From positions 1,240 through 65,239 of the IMG/VR virus record IMGVR_UViG_3300031707_001866: a stretch of DNA of 64,000 bases. One strand, 5' to 3'. A program made the translations under genes and the position numbers. This stretch comes from a virus (taxonomy: Duplodnaviria; Caudoviricetes). The notes beneath the pieces are model-generated. The model did not search any database. It had not been told where the DNA came from and worked only from the letters and a program-made list of their open reading frames with translations. Of the stretch, positions 38,951-46,705 are shown piece after piece. Numbering within the stretch: position 1 is the stretch's first letter; each line of letters opens with the position of its first letter.

Positions 38951-39175
38951 ATGAAAATAGAAGAGATGATAAATAAAATATTCTTAGAGACTAAAAATGG
39001 GTTTGAGTATGTTAAACAAATCCCAGACAAGTCTATTGATATGATACTTTGTGATTTGCCTTATGGAACGACCGCCTGTAAGAATCTGAAAAGAAACTTT
39101 ATAGGAATGGAAATCTATCAAGAGTATATAGACATATCCTATAAAAGATTGGCGGAACTAGATGGAAATAGGTAA
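38951..39175 (+). pseudogene. Internally deleted N4/N6 DNA methyltransferase
   Basis: [18 protein letters not shown] joined directly to [14 protein letters not shown]; TRD and FxGxG missing. Confidence 0.75.
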
Positions 39176-39752
39176 AAATTTTTCTTGTAATAATGAAGGA
39201 AAAAGGAAGAAAAGCGACTTTTATGAAACTCCATATTCTATTACAAGACAATTTTTGGAATTGGAACCGCCTCCCCTGGAATGGAAAATTCTCGAACCTG
39301 CCGCTGGTTCGGGGGCAATGACAAAAGTAATAAAAGAGTTTTCAAGTAATGTTACAGAGTATAAATTTGAACAGGGGAAAGATTTTTTAATAGAAAACGA
39401 AAAGTTCGATTTTATAATAACAAATCCTCCTTTTTCTCTTGCCTATGAATTTATTCAAAAAGCAAAACAAGTTGCAAATCATAAGTTCGCACTTTTATTG
39501 CCCTTGTCTTATTTGCACGGAAAAACCAGATTTGATAATGTTTGGTCTGATAAAAAGTTTCCATTATCCCATATATATGTATTTGTTCGTTATCCGATGT
39601 TAGGGAACAAACTGCGAGAAGATGGAAAATATAAAACAGGTATGATGGTTTATGCTTGGTATGTATGGGACAAAAGCACAACAAATAAAGAGCCCATCAT
39701 TAAATGGATTGATAACCATAAATATGTAATAGGGGCAAGAAATGGACAATAA
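39162..39752 (+). CDS. DNA N6-adenine methyltransferase
   Basis: [14 protein letters not shown] (motif I), IITNPPF (motif IV). Confidence 0.88.
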
Positions 39753-40692
39753 AATTGAAATAATAGAATACAAATCCAATGCTCACCCGGACACCTTAAC
39801 AGACCTGGTTGTGGAAGCGTGTGCAACTTTTTTAGATTGGTATTACCAACGAAACTACGGGAAAGTTTTACATTACAATGTAGACAAGGCTCTATTCTCT
39901 GCCGGAGACGCAAACGTTTATTACGGCGGGGGAGAAGTCGTAAAACCACCTTGTTTTATTCTCGGCGGTCAAGTCACTAATTTAGATAGTGTCTTACGAA
40001 GTTGCTTAGTGGGAGAAACTAGAAAAACAATTAGAAAACACTTACCTAATTTAAAAGAGTTTGATGTGGAAATAAGATGCGGTTCCACAGTAAAAAATTT
40101 AAACGACATCGCTGTCAATGAAGTAATTTTATCTAATGACACCTCTTTTGGTGTAGGGTATTATCCTTATTCTTCTGCTGAGCAGACAGTCTTTTCTATT
40201 CGGGATTATTTAGACTTCGTAATCCACGAACAGGTAATCCCAATGGGTGAACTGTACAAAATAATGTATACCCCAGAAACTATTTGTATCTCGGCTCCTT
40301 TATATGCCAATAGAATTCCAGACAGAGAAGCCTACGCTGAGTTTAAGGCACGCATCCAGTATGAACTCTCTGATTATGGCAATATAATATTCAACCCAGA
40401 CTTTGATGGGGGGTTTCCTTATATGACTTTGTGTGGGAGTAGTATTGAATGTGGTGACGATGGTCAGGTGGGTAGAGGAAACAGATACAACGGTCTTATA
40501 ACCCCGTGCCGCCCGATGACCATTGAAGCGTATCACGGGAAGAATAATAAAAACCACGTGGGAAAACTCTACTCTAAAATGGCTTTTGAAAGAGCCAAAG
40601 CGCTTTATGAAGAAACAGGTAAATATACTGAAGTAATTCTAGTTAGTAAAATAGGAAGACCAATTACCGAATACGAGGAGTATATAATATGA
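39742..40692 (+). CDS. mat: Archaeal-type S-adenosylmethionine synthetase (methionine adenosyltransferase)
   Basis: HPDTLTD, HYNVDK, NDTSFGVGYYP, GDDGQVGRGNR.NGLITP.RPMTIEA..GKN..NHVGKLY. Confidence 0.88.
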   Translation: MDNKIEIIEYKSNAHPDTLTDLVVEACATFLDWYYQRNYGKVLHYNVDKALFSAGDANVYYGGGEVVKPPCFILGGQVTNLDSVLRSCLVGETRKTIRKHLPNLKEFDVEIRCGSTVKNLNDIAVNEVILSNDTSFGVGYYPYSSAEQTVFSIRDYLDFVIHEQVIPMGELYKIMYTPETICISAPLYANRIPDREAYAEFKARIQYELSDYGNIIFNPDFDGGFPYMTLCGSSIECGDDGQVGRGNRYNGLITPCRPMTIEAYHGKNNKNHVGKLYSKMAFERAKALYEETGKYTEVILVSKIGRPITEYEEYII

Positions 40693-40834
40693 ACAATCCA
40701 ATACTTTTAGTGCTGATATTTTTTCAACTTTTGGTGGCCGGGTATTATTTTATATCTAAGGCTCCTTTGCTTGGTGGATTATTTATTATTTATGCTATTA
40801 GTAATGTAATAACCATATTTTTGAAAGTGCAATA

Positions 40835-41707
40835 ATGAAAAAGTTACGAATTTTTGACTTGTTTACTGGCATTGCTGGTTTTAGTTTAGGAATAATTCGT
40901 GCATTGGGAAAAGAAAATGTTGAGATAGTGGGATTCGGCGAAATTGAAAAAGACCCAATCGCCATAAATAAATTTAATTTTAAGGAGATTAAAAATTATG
41001 AAGATGGAAAACCCTTGCCCGATTTTGATTTGCTTGTCGGAGGGAGCCCTTGCCAAGACCTCAGCACTGTTGGAAAAAGGAAGGGACTGTTTGGAGAAAG
41101 AAGTAGACTATTCTTTTATTTCGTGCAACTTCTTAAAGAAAAGCAACCTACAAATTTTATCTTTGAAAATGTTAAAGGTATTTTTTCAAGCGATAGAGGA
41201 TGGGATTTTGCAAGAGTGCAAATTGAGTTTTCCGAAGCAGGTTATGACATTGAATGGCAACTACTCAACTCCGCTGACTTCGGAGTCCCTCAACACAGAG
41301 AGCGAATTTATATTATCGGACATCTTAGAGGAAAAAGTGAACCAAAAGTATTTCCTTTCACAAAGAGTAACAGACCGATTATTAAAAAGGAATCTAAATA
41401 TTTAATATTTGATGGTTACAATAGAAAGTTTACAGAAATGATTGGCAGTTTAAGACAAAATATGCTGAATGGTGGAAGTTTAATTGTAGAAGACAACAAA
41501 TTTCGCAAACTAACTCCGATAGAGTGTGAAAGACTGCAGAGTTTTCCAGATAACTGGACGAAATTTGGGATAAGCCAAAAGGGAACCCAGTATGAAATTT
41601 CTGATAATAGACGGTATAAAGCAGTAGGGAACGCAGTTACGGTTAGTCTCGTAGAAACGATTGTTAGGAAGTTATATAAAGTAATCAAAGAGGAAAAATG
41701 CTTATAA
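40835..41707 (+). CDS. C5 DNA cytosine methyltransferase
   Basis: DLFTGIAG, GGSPCQDLS, ENVKG, PQHRERIY, YKAVGNAV. Confidence 0.93.
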   Translation: MKKLRIFDLFTGIAGFSLGIIRALGKENVEIVGFGEIEKDPIAINKFNFKEIKNYEDGKPLPDFDLLVGGSPCQDLSTVGKRKGLFGERSRLFFYFVQLLKEKQPTNFIFENVKGIFSSDRGWDFARVQIEFSEAGYDIEWQLLNSADFGVPQHRERIYIIGHLRGKSEPKVFPFTKSNRPIIKKESKYLIFDGYNRKFTEMIGSLRQNMLNGGSLIVEDNKFRKLTPIECERLQSFPDNWTKFGISQKGTQYEISDNRRYKAVGNAVTVSLVETIVRKLYKVIKEEKCL

Positions 41708-43511: not shown

Positions 43512-43814
43512 ATGGCAAATAAATATTTCGAGTTAGTTACATTTTATAAAATATTTAAGGGATATGATAAAATACCTAACTGGGATAAAATAAATTTCAA
43601 TATGGGAAAGAACATTTCCCCGGCTAAAAGATTGCTGGAATTGACCGGAGGTGACGAGAAATTAGCCAGGCAAGCAATTGAGCAGATTGGCTATAAATTA
43701 AACGAATTGCAGATGAAGAGTTGGACTTTAAATGCAATAGTAAGAAATTATGATAATTGGTTCGTAAATATTTATACCCCTACGCAGCAGAATAAGTCTG
43801 CATTGGAGAAATAA
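43512..43814 (+). CDS. Hypothetical protein (replication module)
   Basis: 100 aa between polymerase and primase-helicase. Confidence 0.6.
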   Translation: MANKYFELVTFYKIFKGYDKIPNWDKINFNMGKNISPAKRLLELTGGDEKLARQAIEQIGYKLNELQMKSWTLNAIVRNYDNWFVNIYTPTQQNKSALEK

Positions 43815-45565
43815 TGCCGAATAGATTAGAAATAACAAATTATTTATCCGAAAGAAATTTGAGATTTCAGGTAAGTGTAAACTCTCAAATAAATTTACGC
43901 GGGTGTCCTTTTTGTGGCGACGCTAGTTGGTATCATTTTTATATTTTAACGGAAGAGAAGAAAACCCCGAATAAGACCTACCCCCCAGGGACATTTAATT
44001 GTAAGAAATGTAATGCTTCCGGCGGATGGGAACAATTTGTTTCTAAGTTAACAAATGCCGAGCCAATCTCTGAAACAGAAGAAATGAAACAGGATGTTCC
44101 GGCACTTACCATAGACTTGGTAGAAAGTTACCATAATTTATTATATAAAAATGAAATTGCCCTCAAATATCTTTACAGTCGGGGTTTTAATGATAAGTCT
44201 ATTAAATATTTTAAAGTAGGCTGTTTAGAGGACAACTCAGGAATATGGATTGCCTTTCCTTCATTAAGAGAGGGTAAAGTCGAAGACATTAACTTCAGAT
44301 TGATTACAGGCAAAGAAAAAAGATACAAAAGAACAGGAATAGGTAAAGTAATTTTATATAATCAGGACGCTATAAAGGACTACAAAGAAGTTTTTGTGGT
44401 TGAGGGGGAACCCGATTGTATAACTCTTTGGCAGGCCGGAGTAAAAAATATCTGCGCTGTTTTGGGAGCCAACAATTTTCCGGCTGAATCGTATGATTTA
44501 TTAAAAACAAAGATTAAAGTATACATTTGCTTGGATAATGACGCTGACCGAAGTCCGAATGTGGGTCAAGTAGCAGCGCGTAAGTTCGCAGAACGTTTAG
44601 GATTCAGTCGGTGCTGGAATATCACTCTCCCAGTTAAGGATGTTAATGAATATTTTAAAGACCACAATATAAGTGACTTCCAATTATTGGTAGAACAGGC
44701 TAAACAATATAAAGTAGAGAGCGTTTATTCTTTAGAAGAGATGGCCGATGAAGTAGAAAAGAAAGACGACGAACTTACCGGAATAGAAACGGGATGGGAA
44801 AACGTAGACAAATTAACGAAGAGATACCAGCCGGGGGAATTAACTGTTATTTCAGCCGGGGTGGGCGTGGGCAAGACCACCTTCACTTTAAATACTGCGT
44901 TATATAACGCCCATAAGGGCATACCCTCGTTATATTACTGTTTAGAGGTTCCTTCCAAGCGGTTATACAGAAAGATAGTGGCCTACGAATTAGAGATTTC
45001 CGATAACTATGAGGCCGATATAACCCCAGAAATGTTTGCTCAAGCCAGAGAGAAACTTAAAGGTATTCCGTTCTATGTGGGGCATAACTTTGCCATAGCC
45101 AATGGTGTTGAGATGATGAGTCTGTTAAGTGAATCTGTTAAGCGTTATAATATTCAATTATTGGTATTTGACAATATAAACTTTTTGGTTAAAAATATTG
45201 AACACACCACGCAAGAGATTGACAAGGTAAGTAAAGCGTTTAAGACCCTATCTTTGGAATATAATGTGGCGACTCTTTTGATAGCCCAGTTATCTAAAAT
45301 ACCGGAAGACCGTATGCCTACTGTTCAGGACATACGAGGTAGCAGTTTAATTTCTGCTGATGCGGATAATGTTCTGTTCTTGTATCGTAAAAGAATAACT
45401 ACTGATGTTAATAGAACCGAAGAAGACTTCTGTTCTCTTAATTTTTCTCTTGACCCGTTTACCATTATTAGATTAGACAAAAGTAGATTTTCTTCCGGCG
45501 GGGATACGGCGCTGTATTTTGATGGGGCAAAATCACGTTTCTATCCTATTAAGAAAGAGGAATAA
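43814..45565 (+). CDS. Primase-helicase (Zn finger, TOPRIM, DnaB-like)
   Basis: CPFC/CKKC, VEGEPD, LDND, AGVGVGKTT, AQLS, IRGS, DADNV. Confidence 0.93.
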   Translation: MPNRLEITNYLSERNLRFQVSVNSQINLRGCPFCGDASWYHFYILTEEKKTPNKTYPPGTFNCKKCNASGGWEQFVSKLTNAEPISETEEMKQDVPALTIDLVESYHNLLYKNEIALKYLYSRGFNDKSIKYFKVGCLEDNSGIWIAFPSLREGKVEDINFRLITGKEKRYKRTGIGKVILYNQDAIKDYKEVFVVEGEPDCITLWQAGVKNICAVLGANNFPAESYDLLKTKIKVYICLDNDADRSPNVGQVAARKFAERLGFSRCWNITLPVKDVNEYFKDHNISDFQLLVEQAKQYKVESVYSLEEMADEVEKKDDELTGIETGWENVDKLTKRYQPGELTVISAGVGVGKTTFTLNTALYNAHKGIPSLYYCLEVPSKRLYRKIVAYELEISDNYEADITPEMFAQAREKLKGIPFYVGHNFAIANGVEMMSLLSESVKRYNIQLLVFDNINFLVKNIEHTTQEIDKVSKAFKTLSLEYNVATLLIAQLSKIPEDRMPTVQDIRGSSLISADADNVLFLYRKRITTDVNRTEEDFCSLNFSLDPFTIIRLDKSRFSSGGDTALYFDGAKSRFYPIKKEE

Positions 45566-45567
45566 TT

Positions 45568-45643
45568 GCGGAGGTAGTTCAGTGGTAGAACAGCAAACTT
45601 TCCAGTTTGAAGACGGCGGTTCAACTCCGACCTCTCCGCTCCA
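45568..45643 (+). tRNA. Non-canonical tRNA-Gly-like element (TCC), overlapping the Mom-like CDS
   Basis: GCGGAGG/TCTCCGC acceptor, U discriminator, CCA, canonical D arm GTTC-AGTGGTA-GAAC; anticodon loop 6 or 8 nt; bulged A in T stem. Confidence 0.75.
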
Positions 45644-46193
45644 ATTACAAGTCATTATAGTAGAAATAGAGAAGCCAGAAGCTAAATTACTCATTGAAAA
45701 TTATCATTATTTAGGTAATAAACCGTTTAGAAGCAGCGTTATATTTGGATTGTTTGTCAATCACCTTTTAGTCGGCTGCGCTGTTTTTCACGGATTATCC
45801 GCTCCCGAAACAGCGGTTGGCGCTTTTGGGTTAGAAAGAAAGCAACAGCACAATTTAATGGAATTAGGGAGATTGGTGCTACATCCGAAGTATAACGGTA
45901 AAAATTATGGCAGTCAATTAGTCGGTTTTAGTTTAAGAAAATTAAAAAGTTATGGTGTTCGGGCTGTTATAAGTTACGCTGACAGTAGTAGACATAGTGG
46001 GGCAATTTATAGAGCGTGTAATTTCAAATATTACGGTTTAAGCGCAAAGAAAAAAGATTTTTATGTTAACGGTAAAATTCAAGAGAGAGGAAAAACTAAG
46101 GGAATTAACGGTGAATGGAGAGACCGCCCACAAAAACACAGGTATATATTTTTATTGGATAAAACTTTAAAAGTTTATTGGAAGGAACAATAA
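45582..46193 (+). CDS. Mom-like GNAT-fold DNA adenine modification protein
   Basis: ENYHYLG, ELGRL, VISYAD..HSGAIYRACNF.YYG, KHRYIF; GTG 45582 with GGAGG 45570-45574 (alternative ATG 45522). Confidence 0.75.
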   Translation: MVEQQTFQFEDGGSTPTSPLQLQVIIVEIEKPEAKLLIENYHYLGNKPFRSSVIFGLFVNHLLVGCAVFHGLSAPETAVGAFGLERKQQHNLMELGRLVLHPKYNGKNYGSQLVGFSLRKLKSYGVRAVISYADSSRHSGAIYRACNFKYYGLSAKKKDFYVNGKIQERGKTKGINGEWRDRPQKHRYIFLLDKTLKVYWKEQ

Positions 46194-46705
46194 TGGACAA
46201 AAAAGATGTTCGCAAACTCATCCTGTTATACAAAAAAAATCACGACACAAAAGCGTTGACTATCTTAATGGAAGCGTTTGAGGGATTGATTTACTGGATA
46301 GTCTATAAGAGGTTTAAGAGGTTAATGCGCTATGTGGATATTGAGGATATAAAAGCGGAAGCGAAAGCGTGCTTTATTGAATTGGCCTTAACTTACAATC
46401 ACCGGCGAAAGATGAGCTTTTTAAGTTATATACATAGGTTCTTGCCTTTGCGCCTTTGTAGTAAATTCCAAAAACCCAAACTGGTGGAAATACCAGCCCC
46501 AGACCTTTTAGACCTTACGGAAGCACCCATACCGGCCAACCAAGACCCCGATTATCTTGCCTTGATACAAAACCTCACCATAAAAGAAAAAGACGCCCTT
46601 ACGCTTCCTTTGAGGCGTTGGGCGTCTAAATATCATTCTACGACCCACCAAGCACGAAAAATACGCACTACGATTAGAAAACAGGCATTAAAAATAAGTA
46701 GGTAA
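46193..46705 (+). CDS. Sigma factor-like protein (region 2)
   Basis: LMEAFEGLIYWIV, DIEDIKAEA...IELALTYN....SFLSY. Confidence 0.7.
   Translation: MDKKDVRKLILLYKKNHDTKALTILMEAFEGLIYWIVYKRFKRLMRYVDIEDIKAEAKACFIELALTYNHRRKMSFLSYIHRFLPLRLCSKFQKPKLVEIPAPDLLDLTEAPIPANQDPDYLALIQNLTIKEKDALTLPLRRWASKYHSTTHQARKIRTTIRKQALKISR

What the first reader, a model, noticed from the sequence alone, without database searches (positions are those of the whole stretch)
45568..46193. tRNA-Gly-like element fused in frame to a Mom-like DNA-hypermodification gene and hiding its RBS and start codon
Seen: a 76-nt cloverleaf starts 2 nt after the helicase stop. It has bacterial Gly identity elements (G1-C72, C2-G71, G3-C70, U73, CCA, TCC) but two defects: the anticodon loop is 6 nt (CAAAC-TTTCCA-GTTTG) or 8 nt rather than 7, and the T stem has a bulged A (GG-CGG/CCG-A-CC). 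The same bases read without a stop into the Mom-like GNAT (…VEQQTFQFEDGGSTPTSPLQ…), with SD GGAGG (45570-74) in the acceptor stem and an in-frame GTG (45582) in the D loop, 7 nt downstream. Knowledge: Mu Mom makes N6-carbamoylmethyladenine and, as I recall, has been reported to use Gly-tRNA(Gly) as donor (verify); T-stem pairs set EF-Tu affinity, as in staphylococcal non-proteinogenic tRNA-Gly. Inference: one locus encodes both the enzyme and a dedicated, translation-incompetent glycyl carrier; folding or processing as tRNA is mutually exclusive with translating the enzyme, forming an RNA switch that balances cofactor against a toxic enzyme.
Basis: partly seen in the sequence, partly recalled or inferred. 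Interest (0 to 1): 0.92.

Follow-up and report, generated by a model that had tools for sequence, protein, structure and literature searches.

The report
Odd glycine tRNA inside Mom gene
A phage gene for a Mom-type enzyme, which in phage Mu decorates DNA with glycine taken from tRNA, carries a glycine-tRNA look-alike unfit for protein synthesis inside its own coding sequence, and the same nested pair recurs in many uncultured phages.

Summary
At 45568-45643 (+), 2 nt after the primase-helicase stop, lies a 76-nt cloverleaf: ARAGORN calls it 'tRNA-???' with a 2-nt anticodon and Rfam tRNA scores 35.3 bits against a cut-off of 29. It has G1-C72, C2-G71, G3-C70, U73, an encoded CCA, UCC in a 6-nt loop, and a bulged A in the T stem. 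It reads in frame into a Mom-family GNAT (PF25680, E 1.8e-27; best fold match Mu Mom 8bv8).

It is not a one-off. Across 255 loci I found 117 unique elements, and 101 continue in frame into a Mom-like ORF. In 38 unique elements retrieved through the protein alone, 98.2% of stem cells pair, against 39-51% in slid controls, and 18 of 22 pairs show compensatory changes. The 6-nt loop, the bulged A and a tertiary G18/U55 contact also covary or are invariant. A second class sits at the 3' end of Mom genes.

The most likely reading (0.55) is a private, non-decoding glycyl carrier for Mom whose folding or excision competes with translation. No RNA or biochemical data exist. I found no published description. 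This scan has noted the same thing before on other DNA.

The parts
43814..45565 (+). Primase-helicase gene (Toprim + DnaB_C). Its stop TAA at 45563-45565 lies 2 nt before the tRNA-like element and 16 nt before the GTG.
   Evidence: ORF list; Pfam DnaB_C E 2.9e-33 and Toprim_2 E 2.7e-10; phrog_239 primase/helicase.
45568..45643 (+). Non-canonical tRNA-Gly-like element, 76 nt, lying wholly inside the open frame of the Mom-like gene.
   Evidence: ARAGORN tRNA-??? (tc); Rfam tRNA 35.3 bits; own model R1 87.5 bits; covariation.
45568..45574 (+). Acceptor stem 5' strand GCGGAGG (G1, C2, G3). It contains the Shine-Dalgarno-like GGAGG at 45570-45574.
   Evidence: Sequence. Pairs 1-72, 3-70 and 6-67 are invariant and 2-71 is C-G in 37 of 38.
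45577..45591 (+). D arm: stem GTTC/GAAC and loop AGTGGTA with G18 G19. The in-frame GTG at 45582-45584 (tRNA nt 15-17) is the likely start codon here.
   Evidence: The D stem is 99.3% paired, with all 4 pairs compensatory. ATG/GTG/TTG at nt 15-17 occurs in 17 of 20 representatives.
45594..45609 (+). Anticodon arm: stem CAAAC/GTTTG and the 6-nt loop TTTCCA (45599-45604) holding U34 C35 C36.
   Evidence: The loop-closing pair (columns 31-38) is U-A in 21 and C-G in 17 of 38, never unpaired. T34, C35 and C36 are invariant in 38 of 38.
45615..45632 (+). T arm: GGCGG / TTCAACT / CCG-A-CC, with a bulged A at 45630 between the third and fourth pair.
   Evidence: The T stem is 100% paired with 4 of 5 pairs compensatory, and A63 is invariant in 38 of 38.
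45633..45643 (+). Acceptor 3' strand TCTCCGC, discriminator U73 (45640) and encoded CCA (45641-45643).
   Evidence: U73 in 36 of 38 and CCA in 36 of 38 elements fetched through the protein alone.
45582..46193 (+). Mom-like GNAT gene, read from GTG 45582 (203 codons) to stop TAA 46191-46193. The Mom domain starts near 45654. Codons 1-21 are tRNA-like nt 15-76.
   Evidence: Pfam Mom PF25680 E 1.8e-27, residues 46-219 of the 224-aa frame; AF2 mean pLDDT 89.1; Foldseek top hit 8bv8_B, E 3.6e-12; profile hit to 8bv8_A, E 1.1e-08.
46193..46705 (+). Downstream sigma-factor-like gene. Its ATG overlaps the Mom stop by one base (TAATG).
   Evidence: Sequence; phrog_351 RNA polymerase sigma factor E 2.1e-06; weak Sigma70_r2 E 0.045.

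Best explanation
The 76 nt encode a tRNA-shaped RNA derived from tRNA-Gly(UCC). It keeps what glycyl-tRNA synthetase reads: G1-C72, C2-G71, C35, C36, U73, a full L-shape and a ready-made CCA. It carries two conserved defects, a 6-nt anticodon loop and a bulged A in the T stem where EF-Tu binds, that should keep it off the ribosome.

It most likely serves as a private glycyl carrier for the Mom-like enzyme encoded on the same transcript. By analogy with Mu Mom, that enzyme moves glycine from Gly-tRNAGly to N6 of adenine in double-stranded DNA.

Because the RNA lies inside the coding sequence, one transcript can be translated or folded and cut out, but not both at once. In this window the SD (GGAGG) is the acceptor 5' strand and the start (GTG) sits in the D loop. 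Initiation therefore needs the stem open, probably through ribosomes finishing the helicase gene 2 nt upstream.

**Shown:** the structure, its conservation and covariation, the open frame, the linkage to Mom, and the Mom fold.

**Inferred:** charging, release, exclusion from translation, use by the enzyme, and coupling.
For: 1. **A real tRNA fold under selection.** In 38 unique elements fetched through the protein only, 98.2% of 836 stem cells pair, against 75.5% in shuffles and 39-51% in slid controls. Eighteen of 22 pairs show changes on both sides. The 72-row set gives the same result.

2. **Tertiary contacts are kept.** U8 occurs in 66 of 72, A14 in 70 of 72, and T54 and A58 in 72 of 72. 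Canonical G18 and U55 covary: G/T 48, A/G 21, other 3.

3. **The glycine identity set is conserved.** G1, G3, C70, C72, T34, C35 and C36 are invariant in 38 of 38. C2-G71 is present in 37 of 38, U73 in 36 of 38 and CCA in 36 of 38. These are the bacterial GlyRS determinants, and GlyRS needs the whole L-shape (PMC10464925: abstract and passages read).

4. **Both oddities are conserved.** The loop-closing pair is paired in 38 of 38 and covaries. The bulged A is present in 38 of 38.

5. **Linkage to Mom is close to exclusive.**
   - A DNA pattern that does not include Mom found 85 unique cores in the loci held. Seventy run in frame into a Mom-like ORF, and most of the rest sit at the 3' end of one.
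   - In 596 Gb of prokaryote genomes the pattern hit 12 places. Eleven lie inside a Mom-like ORF and the twelfth is cut by a contig end.

6. **The element occurs at either end of the gene**, and two loci (one sequence) have a canonical tRNA-Gly(UCC) 3 nt before the Mom ATG. Proximity to Mom is what is kept, not a 5' leader position.

7. **The enzyme.** Pfam Mom, fold match to 8bv8, and family-invariant R and S aligned with the residues I take to be Mu R111 and S124 (the numbering offset is inferred).

8. **Published basis.** Mu Mom needs Gly-tRNAGly with a terminal ribo-A and rejects Gly-tRNAAla (PMC13219725, sections 9 and 10).

9. **The encoded peptide looks like a passenger.** pLDDT is 43-48 for residues 1-20 and there is no secondary structure before residue 29.

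10. **It is nevertheless translated.**
    - The Mom frame has stops in 3 of 117 unique elements, against 94 and 95 of 117 in the other two frames.
    - In-frame length variants of +3 and -3 exist (79 nt once, 73 nt twice), and one +1 variant has its extra base ahead of the D-loop ATG. Two other 77-nt variants were not analysed.
Against: - There is no RNA evidence at all. No 76-nt species, charging, EF-Tu test or modified base has been seen for any member.
- Release by RNase P would destroy the mRNA. A separate tRNA gene, as in L058/L059, would be simpler, so the nested position needs an extra regulatory reason.
- Mu Mom works with all three host isoacceptors (PMC13219725, section 10), so a private carrier is not required in principle.
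- Sixty-four of 234 related Mom loci have no element within the DNA held, including 15 of 17 in the window's own clade.
- A 6-nt loop may spoil presentation of C35 and C36 to GlyRS.
- U at -1, the RNase P preference (recalled), occurs in only 45 of 72.
- A carrier not shielded by EF-Tu may be exposed to deacylation. PMC4880308 suggests this; I saw only its search listing.
Confidence: 0.55

Rival explanations
1. A cis-acting tRNA mimic only. The element is never released or charged. It acts as an operator in the mRNA, bound by the Mom-like protein, by GlyRS or cut by RNase P, to limit synthesis of a potentially toxic DNA-modifying enzyme, much as the thrS leader mimics tRNA-Thr.
For: In 5' members the start codon lies 4-19 nt upstream of tRNA nt 1 in most cases, or at nt 15. 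Folding therefore has to interfere with initiation; this inference rests on the known ribosome footprint. In 8 of the 16 unique elements without an upstream in-frame start, an upstream ORF or gene ends at a TAA that overlaps the D-loop ATG. That looks like a device to open the structure. The authors speculate that Mu Mom recognises the acceptor end (PMC13219725, section 14).
Against: The 3' class places the element about 600 nt from the start codon. A mimic of the acceptor end would not need C35 and C36, the G18/U55 elbow contact, the U8-A14 pair or an exact CCA, yet all are conserved. The canonical tRNA-Gly next to Mom in L058/L059 points to tRNA function.
Confidence: 0.22
2. A recruited coding segment. 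An old tRNA gene was absorbed into the reading frame and is now kept for its peptide (CG[DG]S..Q..FQ..GG..PTSPLQ). The tRNA likeness is a relic.
For: The frame is open through the element in 100 of 101 unique 5' members. Some length variants keep the frame: 79 nt once and 73 nt twice. The peptide motif is visible in protein alignments.
Against: Stems change by compensatory double substitutions that alter the peptide freely, for example QQTFQFED, RQVFQPAN and ELPLFQGE. The conserved residues map to the T loop, acceptor stem and CCA. AF2 predicts residues 1-28 without structure, with pLDDT 43-48 for residues 1-20. The 3' class puts the same RNA at the other end of the protein.
Confidence: 0.04
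3. A decayed tRNA gene or attachment-site remnant that happens to lie before the gene, with no function of its own.
For: Phage genomes carry tRNA genes and tRNA-derived att sites. One relative (L171) has an integrase gene ending 13 nt before its element. The window's element is 76-80% identical to cyanophage tRNA-Gly genes.
Against: The two 'defects' are the same in all 38 independently fetched unique elements and the stems covary, whereas decay would be random. No integrase flanks the window's element. The open reading frame is kept.
Confidence: 0.03

Closest known systems
Bacteriophage Mu Mom with host Gly-tRNAGly (Pfam PF25680; PDB 8BV8; Silva et al., Nat Commun 2026, PMC13219725)
   Same: Same protein family and fold. 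By analogy the same chemistry applies: glycyl transfer from Gly-tRNAGly to N6 of adenine in dsDNA, followed by rearrangement to N6-carbamoylmethyl-dA.
   Different: Mu uses any of the three host isoacceptors and encodes no tRNA. Here a non-canonical tRNA-Gly-like RNA is built into the enzyme's own coding sequence. Sequence identity to Mu Mom is only about 20%, and activity is untested.
Non-proteogenic tRNAGly isoacceptors of Staphylococcus aureus, used by FmhB/FemA/FemB (Rietmeyer et al., NAR 2020/21, PMC7826273; abstract read)
   Same: These are glycine tRNAs charged by the normal GlyRS. They interact poorly with EF-Tu and the ribosome and are reserved for a GNAT-fold aminoacyl-transferase outside translation. 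This is the closest functional analogue of what is proposed here.
   Different: [quoted passage not shown] They are free-standing chromosomal genes of one bacterial lineage, and the acceptor substrate is a peptidoglycan precursor, not DNA. The present elements are phage-borne, have a 6-nt loop and a bulged T stem, and are nested in the enzyme's ORF.
tRNA-mRNA co-transcripts and tRNA-like structures in messengers: the E. coli thrU-tyrU-glyT-thrT-tufB operon, plant-virus 3' tRNA-like structures such as TYMV, tmRNA, and the thrS operator (all recalled, not checked here)
   Same: One transcript combines a tRNA-shaped module with a coding function. RNase P or synthetases recognise the tRNA-shaped part.
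   Different: In those cases the tRNA part lies outside the translated frame or, in tmRNA, is a separate domain. Here the whole cloverleaf is translated as codons of the enzyme that is expected to use it.

Membership tests
Mom family of GNAT acyltransferases (PF25680) | Profile match above the curated cut-off | tested here: met
   PF25680: 96.7 bits against a cut-off of 27.1, E 1.8e-27, profile positions 3-191 of 202. phrog_1384 'Mom-like DNA modification protein', E 1e-32.
Mom family of GNAT acyltransferases (PF25680) | GNAT fold closest to the Mu Mom crystal structure | tested here: met
   AF2 model has mean pLDDT 89.1. Foldseek top hits are 8bv8_B (E 3.6e-12, TM 0.68) and 8bv8_A, ahead of generic GNATs at E about 1e-07.
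Mom family of GNAT acyltransferases (PF25680) | Catalytic Arg and Ser (Mu R111 and S124, essential per PMC13219725 abstract) | tested here: inconclusive
   The R in ELGRLVL and the S in NYGSQLV, both invariant in the 31-row alignment A1, align with chain residues 102 and 115 of 8bv8_A. These are 13 apart, and residue 115 is Ala in the S124A mutant. The 9-residue numbering offset is my inference.
Mom family of GNAT acyltransferases (PF25680) | Gly-tRNAGly-dependent modification of adenine in dsDNA | not testable with these tools
   No biochemical or modified-base data are available for this phage.
Canonical elongator tRNA-Gly (Rfam RF00005 tRNA) | Cloverleaf with four covarying stems and tertiary contacts | tested here: met
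   RF00005 scores 35.3 bits against a gathering score of 29. 98.2% of stem cells pair and 18 of 22 pairs are compensatory. G18/U55 covary and T54-A58 is invariant.
Canonical elongator tRNA-Gly (Rfam RF00005 tRNA) | Seven-nucleotide anticodon loop presenting a 3-nt anticodon | tested here: not met
   ARAGORN finds a 2-nt 'anticodon'. The pair closing a 6-nt loop is formed in 38 of 38 and covaries, U-A 21 and C-G 17.
Canonical elongator tRNA-Gly (Rfam RF00005 tRNA) | Regular 5-bp T stem (the EF-Tu contact region) | tested here: not met
   An invariant bulged A lies between the third and fourth T-stem pair in 38 of 38, and the flanking pairs covary. Three T-stem pairs set EF-Tu affinity (PMC3239215, search listing only).
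Canonical elongator tRNA-Gly (Rfam RF00005 tRNA) | Bacterial GlyRS identity set: G1-C72, C2-G71, C35, C36, U73 | tested here: met
   All are present in the window. Family-wide counts of 38: G1-C72 38, C2-G71 37, C35 38, C36 38, U73 36. The set is as listed in PMC10464925. Actual charging is not testable here.
Non-proteogenic tRNAGly (staphylococcal type) | Member of the staphylococcal lineage, with its D and T stem-loop determinants | tested here: not met
   The elements come from uncultured phages and MAG contigs of Chloroflexota, Planctomycetota-type and other phyla. They keep G18 G19 or the A18/G55 variant. The resemblance is functional, not one of descent.
Non-proteogenic tRNAGly (staphylococcal type) | Charged by GlyRS, poorly bound by EF-Tu and the ribosome, preferred by the transferase | not testable with these tools
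   Only sequence features consistent with this were found: the identity set, the 6-nt loop and the T-stem bulge.

The most novel reading that the evidence does not exclude
The mom transcript is a two-state RNA. While ribosomes run through it, it is the messenger for the enzyme. Once translation stops, the cloverleaf folds and RNase P plus 3' trimming convert the same molecule into the enzyme's private glycyl carrier, which kills the message. In the 3' class this would leave a stop-less message. Nesting a tRNA in frame inside the gene of the enzyme that consumes it would then be a built-in timer and ratio-setter for a dangerous DNA-modifying activity, a gene arrangement with no described precedent.
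Probability: 0.3. Interest if true: 0.93.

Novelty: new variant of a known kind. Interest (0 to 1): 0.85.

Why it matters
Tested examples of tRNA-dependent DNA hypermodification, as far as I know, stop at phage Mu and two metagenomic Mom homologues that were active in vivo (PMC13219725), and Mu relies on host tRNA. A widespread phage lineage that carries its own glycine tRNA look-alike, apparently disabled for decoding and written into the enzyme's reading frame, has three consequences.

- It would be a second natural example of a tRNA reserved for non-ribosomal chemistry, after the staphylococcal cell-wall tRNAs.
- It offers a natural orthogonal carrier-enzyme pair and a defined set of anti-determinants (6-nt loop, T-stem bulge) that can be tested on GlyRS, EF-Tu and RNase P.
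- It shows that a structured RNA gene and a protein gene can share the same nucleotides in the same frame, which annotation pipelines miss. The gene caller started this ORF 60 codons too late (P0001), and ARAGORN detected only 22 of the 33 elements that nhmmer found at this position in the window and the 80 viral loci.

It also gives a simple marker for finding momylation-type DNA modification systems in metagenomes.

Tried and rejected
**Searches that found nothing useful**
- blastn of 3 kb around the locus against GenBank phages gave no match.
- Single-sequence scans of viral contigs with the Mom-like protein and with the helicase found no relatives. An alignment was needed.
- phmmer of the protein against PDB gave only weak generic GNAT hits, E 0.03. 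The profile and the fold search found Mu Mom.

**Sequencing runs.** No RNA holder was listed. Three DNA sediment-metagenome runs hold the stretch, one of them probably the source. I did not use read laying, because contigs of DNA runs cannot show RNA ends.

**Folding and signals**
- The folding energy of the 76 nt alone (z -1.42) and with flanks (z -0.58) is not distinctive.
- The promoter and terminator scan gave nothing decisive. No terminator lies between helicase and Mom.

**Context in the window's contig.** I looked for a ParB partner, which is reported with Mom in other notes of this scan. There is none in this 65-kb record, which is about 36% complete. There is one Mom copy.

**Cultured phages**
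- Roseobacter phage CRP-212, the best GenBank Mom relative at 43% identity, has no element.
- Two typical family elements have no blastn match in 50,697 phage records.
- The window's element matches only canonical cyanophage tRNA-Gly genes.

**Model R1.** It found no further non-canonical element in the 48 Mom loci that lacked one, only ordinary tRNAs.

**Readings rejected**
- Pseudogene or att relic, and functional peptide; see the rival explanations.
- An 8-nt loop of the frameshift-suppressor type, because the closing pair covaries.

**Flaws and limits**
- The 'ins' column of the script was mis-framed, and I did not use it.
- The tree is FastTree with many weak forks. About half its rows came from the tRNA-pattern scan, so the count of 6 state changes is only a rough lower bound.
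- Supplements of PMC13219725 (homologue lists and alignments) were closed and may bear on novelty.
Full report
**What is in the window**

The window is 64 kb of a 65,239-base IMG/VR virus record that CheckV rates about 36% complete. Around the finding lie these genes:
- an N6-methylase-like ORF, an archaeal-type AdoMet synthetase, a C5-cytosine methylase and a family-A DNA polymerase;
- a 100-aa ORF and a primase-helicase at 43814-45565;
- the locus in question;
- a sigma-factor-like gene whose ATG overlaps the preceding stop.

Two nucleotides after the helicase stop begins a 76-nt cloverleaf, 45568-45643. ARAGORN reports it as 'tRNA-???' with a two-base anticodon 'tc', while it calls the window's tRNA-His and tRNA-Met normally. 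Rfam's tRNA model scores it 35.3 bits against a gathering score of 29.

Read directly from the sequence:
- acceptor GCGGAGG/TCTCCGC;
- D arm GTTC-AGTGGTA-GAAC;
- anticodon arm CAAAC-TTTCCA-GTTTG;
- T arm GGCGG-TTCAACT-CCG-A-CC;
- U73 and CCA.

**The protein**

The frame that contains the cloverleaf runs without a stop to 46193. It matches Pfam Mom (PF25680) at E 1.8e-27, from residue 46 of the 224-aa frame, which is nt 45654, 11 nt after the CCA. Between 45585 and 45733 there is no in-frame ATG, GTG or TTG. Translation must therefore start at GTG 45582, which has GGAGG 7 nt upstream, or at ATG 45522, which has no Shine-Dalgarno sequence and overlaps the helicase gene.

An AlphaFold2 model built on a 31-row alignment has mean pLDDT 89.1. 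Residues 1-20, which are encoded by the cloverleaf, score 43-48, and no secondary structure appears before residue 29. Foldseek puts the Mu Mom crystal structure 8bv8 first (E 3.6e-12, TM 0.68), about five orders of magnitude ahead of generic GNATs. A family profile finds 8bv8_A at E 1.1e-08. The family-invariant Arg and Ser align with the residues I take to be Mu R111 and S124; the offset between chain and native numbering is my inference.

**The published basis**

Silva et al. (Nat Commun 2026, PMC13219725; I read the abstract and sections 9, 10 and 14, plus term searches) show the following:
- Mu Mom transfers glycine from Gly-tRNAGly to N6 of adenine in dsDNA.
- All three E. coli isoacceptors work, while Gly-tRNAAla does not.
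- The terminal ribo-adenosine is needed.

The main text does not contain 'tRNA-like', 'upstream' or 'neighborhood'. The 2023 preprint does not contain 'tRNA gene', 'tRNA-like', 'adjacent' or 'fused'.

**It is a family**

A protein search returned 683 relatives at E <= 1e-5, of which the best 120 were listed. I picked 24 with near-full coverage and 6 with the highest identity. The 24 share an N-terminal peptide, CG[DG]S..Q..FQ..GG..PTSPL, which is the cloverleaf read as codons.

| Retrieval route | Loci fetched | Loci with the element at the front of the Mom match |
|---|---|---|
| Viral contigs, through the Mom alignment | 80 (of 556 relatives) | 32 by nhmmer; ARAGORN called 19 'tRNA-??? (tc)' and one tRNA-Gly |
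| Metagenome contigs, through Mom-only peptide patterns | 43 | 26 |

Among all loci then held it gave 85 unique cores, and 70 are followed in frame by a Mom-like ORF.

The same pattern hit 12 places in 596 Gb of prokaryote genomes. All are MAG contigs, from Chloroflexota, Pseudomonadota, Victivallales, Omnitrophota, KSB1, Pirellulaceae, Planctomycetaceae and Ignavibacteria. Eleven hits lie inside a Mom-like ORF and the twelfth is cut by the contig end.

Over all 255 loci I count 190 elements, 117 of them unique, and 101 of those continue in frame into a Mom-like ORF.

**RNA-level selection**

The bias-free sample is the 38 unique 76-nt elements that were fetched through the protein alone (A4).

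| Measure (unless stated) | Result |
|---|---|
| Stem cells that pair (836 cells) | 98.2% |
| Same, 500 column shuffles | 75.5% |
| Same, 3' partners slid by 1-3 columns (keeps relatedness) | 39-51% |
| Pairs with changes on both sides | 18 of 22 |
| Pair that closes the loop to 6 nt | U-A 21, C-G 17, unpaired 0 |
| T stem | 100% paired, 4 of 5 pairs compensatory |
| Bulged A | 38 of 38 |
| Invariant positions | G1, G3, G6, A14, T34, C35, C36, C70, C72, C74, A76 |
| C2-G71 | 37 of 38 |
| U73; CCA | 36 of 38 each |

The larger 72-row set (A2) behaves the same: 98.4% paired, with 351 compensatory cells against 85.5 in shuffles. Its columns 33-37 and 48-76 were partly fixed by the search pattern, so I lean on A4.

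Tertiary hallmarks are also kept in A2:
- U8 in 66 of 72 and A14 in 70 of 72;
- T54 and A58 in 72 of 72;
- canonical G18 and U55 change together: G/T 48, A/G 21, others 3 (Fisher p 2.6e-15, not corrected for phylogeny).

The RNA therefore folds as a full L-shaped tRNA. Only the anticodon loop and the T stem depart from the norm, and they depart in the same way everywhere.

**Protein-level constraint on the same bases**

The Mom frame contains a stop inside the element in 3 of 117 unique sequences. The other two frames do so in 94 and 95 of 117. In 100 of 101 unique 5' members the stop-free frame covers the whole element.

Six 5' members depart from 76 nt:
- 79 nt once and 73 nt twice, all of which keep the frame;
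- 77 nt three times. In L052 the extra base lies ahead of the D-loop ATG, which leaves the ATG-to-Mom frame intact. I did not analyse L218 and L255 further.

The peptide itself varies wherever the stems covary. The element is therefore translated, but its sequence is dictated by the RNA.

**Where translation starts**
- In 85 of the 101 unique 5' members an in-frame ATG/GTG lies upstream. It is most often 10 nt (31 cases) or 13 nt (17 cases) before tRNA nt 1, frequently with a Shine-Dalgarno sequence.
- Sixteen have no such start. Thirteen of them have an ATG at tRNA nt 15 or 16, the place of the window's GTG, preceded by GGTGA or GGAGG in the acceptor strand.
- In 8 of those 16 an upstream out-of-frame ORF or gene ends at a TAA that overlaps this ATG (TAATG). 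This is the classic layout for termination-reinitiation.
- The three representatives that lack a D-loop start all have an upstream one.

The window follows the D-loop arrangement. The helicase stop sits 2 nt before the element, so a terminating ribosome would have melted the acceptor stem that otherwise hides GGAGG. The weaker statement holds for all 5' members: a folded cloverleaf, or an RNase P cut at its 5' end, is incompatible with initiation. That is an inference from the known ribosome footprint.

**A second architecture**

The pattern hits that were not followed by Mom turned out to lie at the 3' end of a Mom-like ORF. In L173, L155, L200, L190, L147, L153 and L252 the stop-to-stop frame runs from about -610 to -930 through the element and ends 7-25 nt after it (+83 to +101). 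In L101 it stops inside the element, and in L108 it stops 5 nt before it.

These elements have a long D hairpin without GG, a TGCAA T loop and a loop C-UUCCA-G whose ends can pair. They share the bulged-A T stem, G1-C2-G3, U73 and CCA.

L058 and L059, which carry the same sequence, have a canonical tRNA-Gly(UCC) without CCA 3 nt before the Mom ATG, with an in-frame stop inside the tRNA. Three different layouts thus keep a glycine tRNA of some kind touching a Mom gene.

**Distribution**

On a FastTree of 150 unique Mom domains, the 5' element occupies several deep clades. Element-free genes form a few derived clades. The labels need at least 6 changes; forks are weak and sampling is biased towards carriers.

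The window falls in a clade of 17 in which only it and L211 carry the element. L211 has A73 and loop ACUCCA. The others have an ordinary SD and ATG at the start of the domain. The element is therefore gained, lost or exchanged.

**How it most likely works**

The conserved set G1-C72, C2-G71, C35, C36 and U73 is the bacterial GlyRS identity set, and GlyRS needs the L-shape (PMC10464925: abstract and passages). A ready CCA makes the RNA chargeable after simple trimming.

A 6-nt loop cannot present a normal anticodon. The bulge sits among the T-stem pairs that set EF-Tu affinity (PMC3239215, listing only).

The nearest functional precedent is the set of staphylococcal non-proteogenic tRNAGly. These escape EF-Tu and the ribosome and feed FmhB (PMC7826273, abstract).

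I therefore favour, at 0.55, a private and non-decoding glycyl carrier for the Mom-like enzyme, with the nesting giving mutually exclusive translation and carrier production. A purely cis-acting mimic gets 0.22. It explains the 5' position but not the 3' class, nor the conservation of the anticodon, elbow and CCA. A functional peptide or a decayed tRNA are unlikely (0.04 and 0.03).

**Limits**
- Nothing here shows the RNA exists as a free species, is charged, avoids EF-Tu or is used by the enzyme. No RNA run holds the locus.
- Sequence relatedness inflates the shuffle statistics, so I rely on the slid controls.
- The catalytic-residue mapping rests on an inferred offset.

**Novelty**

Searches of the paper library returned no paper that links a tRNA-like element to Mom homologues. 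The term sets were:
- 'Mom', 'carbamoylmethyl', 'tRNA', 'bacteriophage Mu';
- 'Mom', 'tRNA-like', 'GNAT', 'phage', 'hypermodification';
- 'non-proteinogenic tRNA', 'tRNAGly', 'phage', 'DNA modification'.

The jumbo-phage review PMC7824862 mentions Mom and 'tRNA-like' only in unrelated passages.

Within this scan the same arrangement has been noted on other genomes: e1-2310826, e1-3504202, e1-5795249, e1-3270862 and others. Those are unchecked AI notes. My 3' class and in-CDS results were obtained before I read them, and they agree.

Noticed in passing
L173, L155, L200, L190, L147, L153, L252 (also L101, L108); coordinates relative to the element: A second class of the same bulged-T-stem tRNA-Gly-like element lies at the 3' end of Mom-like ORFs. 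The frame reads through it and stops 7-25 nt later. It has a long D hairpin without GG, a TGCAA T loop and a C-UUCCA-G loop.
   Followed up: partly
L058/L059 3002-3073; L048 3002-3072; L041, L060, L063, L065, L068, L069, L075, L077, L079: In a clade without the odd element, a canonical tRNA-Gly(UCC) lacking CCA sits 3 nt before the Mom ATG (L058/L059). A canonical tRNA-Thr(UGU) sits 11 nt before it in L048, or about 200 nt upstream in nine further loci. Mom genes here lie within tRNA clusters.
   Followed up: partly
Alignment A2, columns 17 and 54 (window 45584 and 45621): There is tertiary covariation of the elbow contact. Canonical G18 with U55 occurs in 48 rows and A18 with G55 in 21 rows, with only 3 mixed.
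   Followed up: yes
L016, L004, L039, L044, L022, L160, L183, L096; upstream of and within tRNA-like nt 1-17: Short upstream ORFs, or in L096 a 139-codon upstream gene, sit in another frame and end at a TAA overlapping the D-loop ATG (TAATG). This suggests termination-reinitiation opens the cloverleaf for Mom translation.
   Followed up: partly
L171 46-1625: A tyrosine-integrase gene ends 13 nt before an element that is fused to a 156-aa ORF with only a weak Mom match (E 1.5e-4) and no Pfam hit. It may be a divergent island-borne version.
   Followed up: partly
L129 5417-5491 (-) and L084 4196-4270 (-): These elements lie between an HNH endonuclease gene and HTH/large-terminase genes. No Mom-like ORF was found within 2.5 kb in L129, and in L084 the upstream side is cut by the contig end.
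   Followed up: partly
L244, element at 2120 of the reversed locus: The open frame extends 526 nt upstream of the element, so the tRNA-like segment may sit between an extra N-terminal domain and the Mom domain.
   Followed up: no
window 39162-41707: An N6-methylase-like ORF, an archaeal-type AdoMet synthetase (PF01941, E 4.5e-70) and a C5-cytosine DNA methylase (E 1.3e-61) lie just upstream of the polymerase. The phage therefore carries several DNA-modification functions beside Mom.
   Followed up: partly
window 46191-46195: The Mom-like stop TAA and the ATG of the sigma-factor-like gene overlap by one base (TAATG). Helicase, Mom-like and sigma-like genes are packed as one translationally coupled string.
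   Followed up: no
window 45567-46190 versus protein P0001: The gene call on record for this contig starts the Mom-like protein at an internal codon (147 aa, 71% of the frame), missing the true 5' end and the embedded RNA.
   Followed up: no
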